From: a plasmid
Reading direction: 5' to 3' (one strand)
Sequence record: AP026589.1
DNA length: 42,609 nucleotides
A program made the position numbers. This document shows positions 36,001-39,000 of this stretch, piece after piece (the stretch's first letter is position 1; each line of letters starts with the position of its first letter).

Positions 36001-39000
36001 AATAATGCCATTTTCCTTTAATTTTGATGTACGTTTCATCCATTTTCCATGAACCCACGTTTCCTTATGCTCTTTACAAATAAATTTGATAGAGTAGTTT
36101 GCCATATTCTTGCACCCAACGATAAATCGTCGTATGAGAAACGTTAATGCCACGATCATATAAGATTTCTTGAACTTCACGATAGCTAAGGTTATAACGA
36201 AGATAGTAGCCCACGGCTACAATAATCACATCCTGCTGAAATTGCTTTCCTTTAAAATGATTCATCGTCATTCCTCCTGCCATCTTTTTCTATTATTCTA
36301 CCTTATTTGATAGTAGATTTAAAACTTTGCAACAGAACCGTTCGTCACATCTTCGATCAATTTCTCTTACGATTTTCTCATCCACATTTCTTATTCTTAC
36401 TTCCATATTAATTCCTCCAATTTAAAAAGGATAGCGAAAAGGAGCCTATCCTTTTTGCTATCCTACTACCCTCCTTTTACTATCCTTCACTATCCTTTCA
36501 CTATCCTATTTTTAAATATTTTGTTCCCACATTTATTTTTGAGAAACGTAATAGGCACAGCCTATTGGAACACTTTTTTTAAAAAGTGTTCCCACGTTTC
36601 CTTATGCTCTTTACAAATAAAGGCTTTTAGAGACGTTCTGGAATTTTAGATTCCTTGAATTGTTCCCATTCATCAATCAATTGGCTATAAGTAGCCATTA
36701 ATTTTTTTCTTGCTCTTGTTGCTTTCGAATCAACAAAAAATCAGTTTGATTCGTTAATTCTAAATATTCTGTTCGGTATTCAATGTTCATCGTACCCGTT
36801 TTACTACATAGTAACTGATTATGACGTTCTTTCACTTTGAATAACTGCTCCTTCTTTAAGGTTTTTAACTCCATGCCAACTATAAGCACAATCCTGTATA
36901 GAGGAATCATTTTCAAACGATTCTCCATAATTATTTATCTTTCATTGGAAGTTCTAAATCACTACTGTTCCAAAAAATGTATGGTTTGTTTTGACGAATA
37001 TTACTTCCATCTAACCACAATTTTCCGATGCCATATCGTAGGCTTGCTTCGACTTCATAAAAATTGTAGATCTCTTTTCTTCGATCTATTGCTTTCATTT
37101 CCTGGCCATTTTTTAAAATAGATCTGATGCCCTTAACAGTAGATTCATGGATACTCGTGTGAACGATATCCGTATTGATCAATTCGTCATATCTTCCAAA
37201 ATCAACATTGTACTCATAACCAAGAAGTGTCGGAATCAGGTCAATTTCAATTTCTTTTTCAATTGAACGTTTAATAAGTTTCGTGGATACATACCCGACA
37301 AAAAAGAGAATAATACCCACTTCAAACAAATACATGTGTCCATTTACAAAGTGAATAAACGTCAATAAAAAATCCTTCACTCCTTTTGTTGTTCTTCCAG
37401 ATTGTTCAATTTGTTTTATTAAAGTCGCTAGAATTGCATTTACAACAATTAAATCGAATAGGCTTTTGAAAAGTTTTCCTGCTGTTAATTTTTGCCTGGT
37501 AAATTGCATGACTAATTGAGTAAAAATAGACAATAGCATGACAAAAATCAACGTCATTAGCACTGTAAAAATGTCTGATGCTGCAATCCTATTGGGATCA
37601 TTTATCAAGTAATAAGCCGTTCCAAATACTCCAATCGAGTAAACGGTTAAATCAAGAATAAGTCGTGCCCCGTAACTACAAAGTTTTCCTAATGGCCATA
37701 ATTGCAATACCCAAAATTTCTTTCGTTTGCTATTTCTTTTCAGAGGAAGCCAGGTGTGTTCAATCCAGTCGTCCGATTTCATTTCGATTTCTTCCCTAAA
37801 TTCTTTCCTTTAACGTTTTCCTTTGCTACTTTAGCAGCGATAGGTTGCTCAATGAACCAATTTTTTAAGTACGCCGATTGTAAAATTAAGCTAGACAACT
37901 AAAAAAGTCATTTGTGCTACACTCAAAATAGTTCCGTCCAAAGAATTATAAGGAGTGAGTACAAATGACCTATACCCATCTTACAACGGATGAACTTGTA
38001 ATGATAGAGTCTTATTTCAAAATAAATCAATCTGTTGCGAAAACTGCGCATTTCTTGAATCGTTCAAGACAAACGATCCATAAAGTATACCTGTTCTTCA
38101 AGCAAGGAAAATCAGCCTTAGAGTACTATCAACAGTATAAGAAAAACAAATCAAACTGTGGTAGACGCCCGCTTGTTTTACCTGAGGAACAATCAGAATA
38201 TATTCAAAGAAAGGTTGTTCAAGGATGGACACCCGATGTGATTGTTGGTCGTGCAGCGTTTCCTATTCGTTGTTCTGCTCGTACCATTTATCGTATGTTC
38301 AAAAAGGGGCTATTTAATCCTTCTGACTTACCGATGAAAGGCAAGCGTAAACCAAATGGACATCAAGAAAGACGTGGAAAACAAGCTTTCCGTCGCTCTA
38401 TTCATGAACGTGAAAAAGATTATAGCCAATTCTCAAATGAGTTTGGTCACCTTGAAGGTGACACTATCGTAGGTTTGAAACATAAAAGTGCTGTAATTAC
38501 CTTAGTTGAGCGATTATCAAAAGTTATCATCACATTGAAACCGTGTGGTAGACAAGCGATTGATATTGAAAACAAATTAAATCATTGGTTTGAATCTGTA
38601 CCGAAAAATCTATTCAAATCCATCACTTTTGATTGTGGAAAGGAATTTTCAAATTGGAAACAGATCAGTAATGCCAATGATATTGCCATTTATTTCGCTG
38701 ATCCAGGAACGCCGTCTCAAAGAGGCCTAAACGAGAATTCTAACGGATTGTTACGTAGAGATGGTTTATTGAAATCTATGGATTTCAATTCAGTAGATGA
38801 ATCTTTTATTCAATCTGTCGCATCGAAACGAAATAATATTCCTAGAAAATCACTGAATTATCGAACACCTTTGGAAGTATTTTTGAGTTACGTAAGTATT
38901 GATGATTTGTCTAACTTAATTTGACAATTAAGAGTAAATAAAAACTACTACTGGATATACTTCTTCCTTTTTCTTAACTCGTTAGCTATTTTATACTCAA

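What the first reader, a model, noticed from the sequence alone, without database searches (positions are those of the whole stretch)
36054..36621. 31-bp same-length replacement inside the IS1216 copy-6 transposase duplicates a sequence 537 bp downstream
Copy 6 is base-for-base colinear with the other five IS1216 copies except at 36054..36084. There, 31 bp (cccacgtttccttatgctctttacaaataaa) replace the native 31 bp (taaaaggattttttatttttctttttccaaa). The same 31-mer occurs in direct orientation at 36591..36621, inside the repeat-rich regulatory region just beyond the IS. The replacement preserves the element length of 809 bp but introduces two stops, so it kills the transposase. A length-preserving templated patch of this kind is not what a simple indel or a second IS insertion would produce. 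It suggests short-patch gene conversion or template switching, or an assembly artefact. Functionally it immobilises the IS copy that anchors the captured RCR plasmid.
Basis: seen in the sequence. Interest (0 to 1): 0.55.

Follow-up and report, generated by a model that had tools for sequence, protein, structure and literature searches.

The report
Unexplained 31-bp copy-overwrite inside one IS1216
One of six IS1216 insertion sequences on this vancomycin-resistance plasmid has about 30 bases overwritten, with no change in length, by an exact copy of plasmid sequence 537 bp away; this destroys its transposase gene, but the junctions fit no known recombination mechanism, so it is more likely a sequence-record artefact than biology.

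Summary
IS1216 copy 6 (35531-36339) lines up base for base with the other five 809-bp copies. It differs by a block of 20 mismatches at 36054-36081 and one SNP at 36281. The 31-mer 36054-36084 is identical to 36591-36621. [quoted passage not shown]

The direction of copying is clear. The 36591 copy is ancestral pRUM-like backbone and is unchanged in more than 280 plasmids. The replaced bases are the native IS sequence.

Gene conversion is not supported. The ±150 bp flanks are no more alike than chance (26.6% against 27.9% expected), and junction microhomology is 0 nt on the left and 3 nt on the right. An exact length-preserving overwrite is what a non-biological copy error gives. No known bacterial recombination pathway predicts it.

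The patch was not found in 72,556 plasmids (7,833 IS1216-containing places), in the genome, metagenome or viral contig collections, or among recorded gene products.

One point argues against a purely random overwrite. The replaced block is the most homopolymer-rich stretch of the IS, in the top 0.11% of the window.

Verdict: most likely an artefact (about 0.6). A real, homology-independent templated patch is possible (about 0.3). Reads or PCR would decide. The surrounding structure, a 1,978-bp RCR plasmid captured by IS1216 copy-in, is ordinary and already described.

The parts
36054..36084 (+). Recipient copy of the 31-mer inside IS1216 copy 6. 36054-36081 hold 20 mismatches to the native IS sequence. 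36082-36084 (AAA) are common to the native and donor sequences.
36591..36621 (+). Donor copy of the 31-mer in the pRUM-like backbone. It lies between the end of a 70-76 aa ORF (minus strand) and a perfect palindrome. This is the ancestral copy.
   Evidence: 281 plasmid records match 36340-37400 at >=99% identity; the 30 listed are 100% over the full length; no differences from L001-L003 across 36340-37871
35531..36339 (-). IS1216 copy 6, 809 bp, with both terminal inverted repeats intact and tnp on the minus strand. It is the boundary IS between the accessory region and the pRUM-like backbone.
36074..36283 (-). N-terminal tnp fragment (63-69 aa depending on the start codon; HTH DNA-binding module), ending ...KLLYQIYL* at the first stop created by the patch.
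35585..36058 (-). C-terminal tnp fragment (DDE_Tnp_IS240 domain, E 3.4e-42), now without its natural start or DNA-binding domain.
36281..36281 (.). SNP (IS position 751, C instead of T) that separates copy 6 from the other five copies. It is shared with the IS1216 at the same backbone junction in NZ_LR135448.1 and NZ_CP023426.1.
32736..33544 (-). IS1216 copy 5, intact, in direct orientation with copy 6. It is identical to copy 6 over 524 bp on the left and, apart from the 36281 SNP, over 255 bp on the right of the patch.
33545..35530 (+). A complete captured small Rep_trans (rolling-circle type) plasmid of about 1,978 bp. Its rep gene is split, and the 8-bp target-site duplication TTTGAATG lies at 33545-33552 and 35523-35530. 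This is the product of an IS1216 copy-in cointegration.
   Evidence: PMC12711152 describes the same type of event
36567..36592 (.). Perfect palindrome GGAACACTTTTT-TT-AAAAAGTGTTCC next to the donor. The donor 31-mer starts 2 nt inside its right arm.
   Evidence: I6
36340..36511 (-). Backbone immediately right of the IS. It holds a short ORF start (MEVRIRNVDEKIVREIDRRCDE...) cut off by the IS, preceded on the minus strand by an RBS and by 6-7 CTATCC/GGATAG repeats in both orientations. It is not involved in the patch.

Best explanation
The patch is most likely not a biological event. It looks like a copy-overwrite error in the sequence record: 28-31 bases of IS1216 copy 6 were replaced, position for position, by a duplicate of a string 537 bp downstream. 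This could have happened during assembly or polishing of a six-copy repeat, or in later handling of the text. On this reading the DNA molecule carries an ordinary intact boundary IS1216, as in hundreds of related pRUM-like plasmids. What is shown: the overwrite is exact and length-preserving, lacks flanking homology, and was not found in any collection searched. What is inferred: that it is non-biological. Which step produced it cannot be determined from the sequence. The locus itself is ordinary: the boundary IS1216 of a pRUM-like vanA plasmid, plus a second direct copy, flank a 1,978-bp RCR plasmid captured by IS1216 copy-in.
For: (1) Copy and donor are 31/31 identical, and net length change is exactly 0. 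(2) There is no homology to guide recombination. In-register identity of the ±150 bp flanks is 26.6% against 27.9% expected from composition, blastn finds nothing significant, and microhomology is 0 nt at the left junction and 3 nt (AAA) at the right. (3) Apart from the patch, window 35531-37900 differs from NZ_LR135448.1 and NZ_CP023426.1 at a single base. So there is one isolated 20-mismatch block on an otherwise near-identical background. (4) 24 full-length IS1216 copies in seven related loci differ from the consensus by 0-5 scattered SNPs, never by a block. (5) No contiguous match to the 81-bp junction query exists in 72,556 plasmids; the best hits are two separate pieces 537 bp apart. Both junction 30-mers are absent from the genome and metagenome contig collections, and the left one from the viral contigs. 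The patch-specific protein fragments are not on record. (6) It is the only isolated, unexplained exact repeat of 16 nt or more in the window outside IS copies and the known heptad arrays. (7) From general knowledge: enterococci lack Ku/LigD end-joining, so two essentially blunt illegitimate junctions are hard to make in vivo.
Against: No reads are available, so the artefact is inferred by exclusion and is not demonstrated. I cannot name an assembler or polisher step that would splice in an exact 31-mer without shared k-mers at the junctions. The rest of the window looks like a high-quality assembly: copy-specific IS SNPs are resolved, and multi-kb stretches are 100% identical to independent records. 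The overwritten block is not a random place. It is the most homopolymer-rich 31-mer of the IS (20 of 31 bases in runs of 4 or more; top 0.11% of all window 31-mers; 16% GC). A uniformly random overwrite would hit such a block in about 1% of cases or fewer. This points to a sequence-dependent process, which could be technical or biological. The source record could not be located, so the window could not be compared with its deposit.
Confidence: 0.6

Rival explanations
1. The patch is a real mutation made by a homology-independent double template switch (MMBIR/FoSTeS-like). A nascent minus strand copying leftwards through the IS stalls in or near the A/T homopolymer block. It re-primes on the AAA at 36619-36621, 537 bp away on the same or a sister plasmid, and copies 28 nt. 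It stops at the foot of the perfect palindrome 36567-36592 and returns to the IS. By chance the return is exactly in register. This inactivates tnp in copy 6.
For: The donor is nearby and in cis (537 bp). There is 3-nt microhomology at the right junction. The copied tract ends 2 nt inside a 12-bp-arm perfect palindrome that could block a polymerase. The replaced tract is the most homopolymer-rich part of the IS, a plausible stall site. Assembly quality elsewhere is high.
Against: There is 0 nt of microhomology at the left junction, so the return step has no primer-template pairing. Nothing in the mechanism preserves length, so an exact net change of 0 would be a coincidence; my rough estimate is a few percent at most. 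Well-documented bacterial template-switch mutations use inverted (quasi-palindromic) templates, not a direct copy (general knowledge). No second example was seen among the 7,833 IS1216-containing places in PLSDB.
Confidence: 0.3
2. The patch is a short-patch, homology-driven (RecA-type) gene conversion from the backbone site into the IS.
For: It is a unidirectional, length-preserving transfer of a short tract from a nearby donor that itself stays intact.
Against: Gene conversion needs homologous flanks. The flanks here are at chance identity (26.6% against 27.9% expected), and the replaced and incoming 31-mers share only 11 of 31 positions.
Confidence: 0.03
3. The patch was made by reverse-transcriptase or primase-polymerase mediated repair of a break in the IS, using a transcript or ssDNA of the backbone region as template. 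The plasmid encodes a group II intron RT fragment and PriCT-domain Rep proteins.
For: A group II intron-type RT ORF lies at 31452-32756, and PriCT_1-domain RepA lies at 39379-40872. From general knowledge, group II intron RTs can switch templates with little or no base pairing, which would tolerate the 0-nt junction.
Against: The RT ORF is cut off at its C-terminus by IS1216 copy 5. There is no evidence for a break, for a suitable transcript, or for such repair in enterococci. Length preservation remains unexplained.
Confidence: 0.03

Closest known systems
IS26-family elements with an inactivated transposase gene (the IS26-FS-L / FS-R frameshift mutants of Harmer, Moran and Hall 2014, PMC4196232)
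   Same: The terminal repeats are intact and tnp is interrupted between or within its domains. Such a copy cannot supply its own transposase but remains a recognisable target for targeted conservative cointegration at about 30-fold lower frequency.
   Different: The lesion here is a 28-nt block substitution copied from neighbouring DNA. It is neither an engineered 4-bp frameshift nor a natural indel or point mutation. Activity of IS1216 carrying this lesion has not been tested.
IS1216 copy-in capture of small plasmids in pRUM-like plasmids (pCOLA, pDRY and pUCH1-4 segments; Allen et al. 2025, PMC12711152)
   Same: Directly oriented IS1216 copies flank a complete small plasmid. The small plasmid's rep gene is split and carries an internal 8-bp TSD. 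One flanking IS is the backbone boundary copy.
   Different: The captured plasmid here is a 1,978-bp Rep_trans plasmid with TSD TTTGAATG. It is 97-98% identical to free 1,979-1,981-bp E. faecium plasmids. None of the described cases reports a block-substituted IS.
Microhomology-mediated template switching (MMBIR/FoSTeS; short template-switch mutation clusters; quasi-palindrome correction in bacteria). Cited from general knowledge.
   Same: A short tract is copied from a nearby template and appears as a dense cluster of apparent substitutions.
   Different: Those events have microhomology at both switch points. In the best-documented bacterial and short-switch cases they use an inverted template within tens of bases. 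Here the copy is direct and 537 bp away, one junction has no microhomology, and the net length change is exactly zero.
Diversity-generating retroelement (DGR) mutagenic homing. Cited from general knowledge.
   Same: It is a directional, length-preserving replacement of a target tract by a copy of a template tract.
   Different: DGR template and variable repeats are homologous and differ only at template adenines. Here 20 of 28 positions differ at all base types, there is no repeat homology, and no DGR-type RT or accessory gene is nearby.

Membership tests
IS1216 (IS6/IS26 family) insertion sequence | 809-bp element bounded by the family's terminal inverted repeats (GGTTCTGTTGCAAAGTTT...) | tested here: met
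   Copy 6 spans 35531-36339, has both repeats, and lines up without gaps with the five other copies.
IS1216 (IS6/IS26 family) insertion sequence | A single intact transposase ORF with an N-terminal HTH domain and a C-terminal DDE domain | tested here: not met
   Two in-frame TAA codons split the ORF into an HTH fragment and a DDE_Tnp_IS240 fragment. As recorded, copy 6 is a defective copy.
IS1216 copy-in cointegrate (small plasmid captured between two IS copies) | Two directly oriented IS copies, with an 8-bp target-site duplication on the inner sides of a complete small replicon | tested here: met
   Copies 5 and 6 are in direct orientation. TTTGAATG lies at 33545-33552 and 35523-35530. The 1,978-bp insert matches free 1,979-bp plasmids over 100% of its length at 97-98% identity.
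Homologous (RecA-type) short-patch gene conversion | Sequence homology between donor and recipient flanking the converted tract | tested here: not met
   The ±150-bp flanks show 26.6% in-register identity against 27.9% expected, and there is no significant blastn alignment.
Microhomology-mediated template switching (MMBIR/FoSTeS) | Microhomology at both switch junctions | tested here: not met
   The right junction has 3 nt (AAA) and the left junction has 0 nt.
Quasi-palindrome / short inverted template-switch mutation | The copied tract is the reverse complement of a nearby template | tested here: not met
   Both copies are on the + strand, and the pattern search on both strands found no inverted copy.
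Diversity-generating retroelement target (VR) | Homologous TR/VR pair that differs only at template adenines, with a DGR RT nearby | tested here: not met
   20 of 28 positions differ and all four bases are involved. The only RT ORF in the window is a truncated group II intron type.
Secondary IS insertion or simple indel | A change in length, new terminal repeats or a target-site duplication at the lesion | tested here: not met
   Element length is unchanged at 809 bp, and no repeats surround the block.
Assembly or record-level artefact | The junctions are absent from the raw reads, or the window disagrees with the deposited source record | not testable with these tools
   No reads are available. 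The source record was not found in PLSDB or in the gene-position index.

The most novel reading that the evidence does not exclude
The patch is physically present in the plasmid and records a homology-independent, exactly length-preserving templated replacement. A polymerase left the most homopolymer-rich tract of IS1216, copied 28 nt from a site 537 bp away up to the foot of a perfect palindrome, and rejoined in register without microhomology. This would be a type of templated mutation not described for bacterial plasmids. As a by-product it would leave an IS1216 copy that makes only the terminal-repeat-binding HTH module (63-69 aa), a possible trans-acting competitor of the five active copies.
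Probability: 0.25. Interest if true: 0.55.

Novelty: not a real feature. Interest (0 to 1): 0.2.

Why it matters
If it is an artefact, the practical point is small. The record mis-annotates a functional boundary IS1216 as a pseudogene, and the locus is an ordinary pRUM-like vanA plasmid with a small plasmid captured by IS1216, as already described. If it is real, it would be a clean natural example of a templated multi-nucleotide replacement with no guiding homology in a bacterium that lacks end-joining. That would interest people who study mutational mechanisms. It would also offer a natural IS26-family mutant that expresses only the DNA-binding module, useful for asking whether transposase acts in cis or in trans. 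Either way the consequence for resistance-gene mobility is minor, because five intact copies remain on the same plasmid.

Tried and rejected
(1) Chance repeat: rejected, with 0 matches in 100 shuffles.

(2) Reverse direction of transfer (IS to backbone): rejected. The backbone copy is unchanged in more than 280 plasmids and in L001-L003, and the native IS block is in all other copies.

(3) Known IS1216 isoform: rejected. No plasmid in PLSDB has either junction contiguous, and 24 copies in relatives show only scattered SNPs.

(4) Relic homology between the IS and the donor region: rejected.

(5) Other similar overwrites in the window: none found. The other repeats are IS copies or the ATCACAA-type heptad arrays.

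(6) Finding the source record or an independent assembly: failed. The PLSDB searches with 15-24 kb pieces gave at most 64% coverage. Nine exact-product look-ups with patch-specific or junction-specific ORFs, including alternative start codons, returned nothing. The supplementary table of the pRUM-like plasmid survey has no 42,609/42,610-bp entry.

(7) A scan for positions private to the window, against seven relatives: it covered only part of the window, because several accessory segments have no close relative among the fetched loci. It therefore supports 'the patch is the only private change' only for 35531-37900.

(8) The patch creating a promoter or terminator: the scan found none in the patch.

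(9) CRISPR spacer mis-integration and DGR homing: considered and rejected on anatomy. There is no added length or repeat duplication, and the changes are not adenine-specific.

Full report
OBSERVATION. The window holds six 809-bp IS1216 copies, at 8018, 14312, 18646, 26470 (inverted), 32736 and 35531. Copies 1-5 differ from each other at no more than two positions (IS positions 148 and 160). Copy 6 (35531-36339) aligns without gaps. It differs from copy 1 at 21 positions: 20 mismatches packed into IS positions 524-551 (window 36054-36081), and one SNP at position 751 (window 36281). The 31-mer CCCACGTTTCCTTATGCTCTTTACAAATAAA occurs exactly twice, at 36054-36084 and 36591-36621, both on the + strand and 537 bp apart. 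None of 100 dinucleotide-preserving shuffles gave any match. The native 31-mer TAAAAGGATTTTTTATTTTTCTTTTTCCAAA is present in the other five copies only. The last three bases (AAA) are common to the native and incoming sequences, so the demonstrable replacement is 28 nt for 28 nt. On the minus (coding) strand the patch changes ...YQI WKKKNKKSFY SWKMD... to ...YQI YL*RA*GNVG SWKMD.... That gives two in-frame TAA stops with the reading frame preserved afterwards. The ORF list shows the split into a 63-69 aa N-terminal fragment and a 157-aa C-terminal fragment. The C-terminal piece carries the DDE_Tnp_IS240 domain (E 3.4e-42), and the N-terminal piece carries the HTH region. By analogy with Tnp26, the patch sits in the flexible linker between the HTH DNA-binding module and the catalytic core (PMC8477213). 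It only omits the SNP at 36281.

CONTEXT. The window is a slice of an Enterococcus faecium multi-replicon vanA plasmid with a pRUM-like backbone. The backbone comprises repA (PriCT domain) at 39379-40872, prgN, an IS30-family insertion at 37965-38924, a 283-aa ORF, a roughly 70-aa ORF and parA/prgO. Copy 6 is the boundary IS1216 between this backbone and the accessory region. The same IS/backbone junction (right flank GTTCGTCACATC...) occurs in many plasmids (197 records cover at least 80% of 35900-36750). In NZ_LR135448.1 and NZ_CP023426.1 the stretch corresponding to window 35531-37900 differs only by the 20 patch positions and one further SNP at 35758. They share the C at 36281. The 1,986 bp between copies 5 and 6 are a complete small Rep_trans plasmid. 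Free 1,979-1,981-bp E. faecium plasmids match it over 100% of its length at 97-98% identity. Its rep gene is split, and the 8-bp duplication TTTGAATG sits on both inner sides. This is the signature of IS1216 copy-in cointegration, shown experimentally for IS1216 (PMC6952201) and described for pRUM-like plasmids (PMC12711152).

DIRECTION. The 36591 copy is ancestral. The region 36340-37400 matches at 99% identity or more in 281 plasmid records, and the 30 listed are 100% identical over its full length. It is also unchanged in L001-L003. The replaced bases are the native IS sequence found in every other IS1216 examined. Information therefore moved from the backbone into the IS.

MECHANISM TESTS. 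Homology-driven gene conversion requires flanking homology. The ±150 bp around recipient and donor are 26.6% identical in register against 27.9% expected from base composition, and a sensitive blastn finds nothing. The outgoing and incoming 31-mers share 11 of 31 positions. Gene conversion is rejected. Template switching requires microhomology at the switch points. The right junction has 3 nt (AAA) and the left has none. The copy is direct, not inverted, which excludes quasi-palindrome-type events. A DGR is excluded because all base types change and there is no TR/VR homology. A simple indel, a second IS insertion and spacer-like integration are all excluded by the unchanged 809-bp length and the lack of new repeats. 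Two features would suit a real polymerase event. The copied tract ends 2 nt inside a perfect 12-bp-arm palindrome (36567-36592). The replaced tract is the most homopolymer-rich 31-mer of the IS: 20 of 31 bases lie in runs of 4 or more, which is the top 0.11% of window 31-mers, and its GC content is 16%. Even so, the homology-free return and the exactly zero net length change have no mechanistic basis. Enterococci also lack classical end-joining (general knowledge).

UNIQUENESS. An 81-bp query across the patch finds no contiguous match in 72,556 plasmids. The best hits are two pieces that lie about 537 bp apart in the subject, namely the IS flanks plus the backbone 31-mer. Both junction 30-mers are absent from the genome-contig and metagenome-contig collections, and the left one from the viral contigs. 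None of the patch-specific protein fragments is on record. Twenty-four full-length IS1216 copies in seven related loci differ from the consensus by 0-5 scattered SNPs and never by a block. Within the window this is the only isolated, unexplained exact repeat of 16 nt or more.

INTERPRETATION. Four properties define the patch: exact identity to the donor, exactly preserved length, no junction homology, and no match in any collection searched. A position-for-position overwrite predicts all four without further assumptions. Every biological mechanism considered predicts them poorly. I therefore rank a non-biological origin first (about 0.6). That origin could be mis-assembly or mis-polishing of a six-copy repeat at its lowest-complexity point, or later corruption or editing of the text. 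This is an inference by exclusion. I cannot name a specific assembler step that would splice an exact 31-mer without shared k-mers. The rest of the window looks well assembled. The coincidence with the homopolymer-rich block argues against a uniformly random overwrite and for a sequence-dependent cause, which might be technical or biological. A real MMBIR-like double template switch is the main rival (about 0.3). RT- or primase-mediated repair and true gene conversion are minor rivals (about 0.03 each).

FUNCTIONAL CLAIM. If the patch is real, copy 6 cannot make transposase. 'Immobilised' is still too strong. Both terminal repeats are intact, and five identical intact copies sit on the same molecule. 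For IS26, inactivating tnp in one of the two participating copies reduces targeted conservative cointegration about 30-fold but keeps the targeting (PMC4196232). TU excision needs the transposase of only one specific flanking copy (PMC4676283). Copies 5 and 6 still share 524 bp and 255 bp of near-identity for RecA-dependent loss of the captured plasmid (the consequence is inference). The N-terminal fragment corresponds to the module that, in Tnp26 (M1-P56), binds the terminal repeat weakly on its own. A dominant-negative effect is conceivable but untested.

LIMITS. Attempts to locate the source through PLSDB, junction-specific gene products and a published plasmid table all failed. The comparison showing that the patch is the only private change holds for 35531-37900 only.

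VERDICT. The patch is most probably an artefact and not a real feature, with about a one-in-four to one-in-three chance of being a real and mechanistically odd templated patch. Junction k-mer counts in the raw reads, or a flank-anchored PCR with Sanger sequencing, would settle it.

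Noticed in passing
window 36521-36529, 36586-36594, 36660-36668: A TGTTCCCA box (TTGTTCCCA / GTGTTCCCA / TTGTTCCCA) occurs three times, spaced 65 and 74 bp apart, around the donor site. The donor 31-mer starts inside the middle box. It may be a protein-binding motif of the pRUM-like backbone; its function is unknown.
   Followed up: partly
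window 36340-36511 (minus strand): A short ORF start (MEVRIRNVDEKIVREIDRRCDE...) with a good RBS is cut off by the right end of IS1216 copy 6. On its own strand it is preceded by 6-7 GGATAG/CTATCC repeats in both orientations. It looks like an operator array for a small ribbon-helix-helix-type regulator or antitoxin whose gene was truncated when the accessory region formed.
   Followed up: partly
window 35758 and 36281: The boundary IS1216 haplotype differs between plasmids at the same junction: G/C in this window, A/C in NZ_LR135448.1 and NZ_CP023426.1, and G/T in NZ_LR135353.1. This suggests recombination or conversion between IS copies. The patch lies between the two marker positions.
   Followed up: partly
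window 31452-32756: A group II intron-type reverse transcriptase ORF (434 aa) runs into the left end of IS1216 copy 5 and loses its C-terminus there.
   Followed up: no
window 21283-21361, 23097-23176, 24076-24132, 30752-30804: There are arrays of ATCACAA/AATCACA heptads in direct and inverted orientation, typical of omega-repressor operator sites of Inc18-type plasmids. They lie next to the parA-like and epsilon/zeta genes. They account for most non-IS short repeats in the window.
   Followed up: no
window 18646-19454 and 26470-27278: IS1216 copies 3 and 4 are in inverted orientation and share the same two SNPs (positions 148 and 160). They bracket a 7-kb segment carrying a truncated topoisomerase gene, erm(B)-like and omega/epsilon/zeta genes. 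This segment could be invertible by homologous recombination.
   Followed up: no
window 1 and 42609: The window starts inside an IS3-family transposase gene and ends inside prgO. In NZ_LR135448.1 these two points are 938 bp apart. The window is therefore a slice of a somewhat larger, probably circular, plasmid and not a complete record.
   Followed up: partly
window 8806-9441 (minus strand): The IS1542 (IS256-like) transposase gene upstream of vanR is truncated by the right end of IS1216 copy 1. This junction-specific product is not on record in the protein collection.
   Followed up: partly
window 28222-29712 and 39379-40872: There are two PriCT-domain replication initiator genes: a pRE25/Inc18-associated type and a pRUM-type RepA. 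The molecule is a multi-replicon cointegrate.
   Followed up: no
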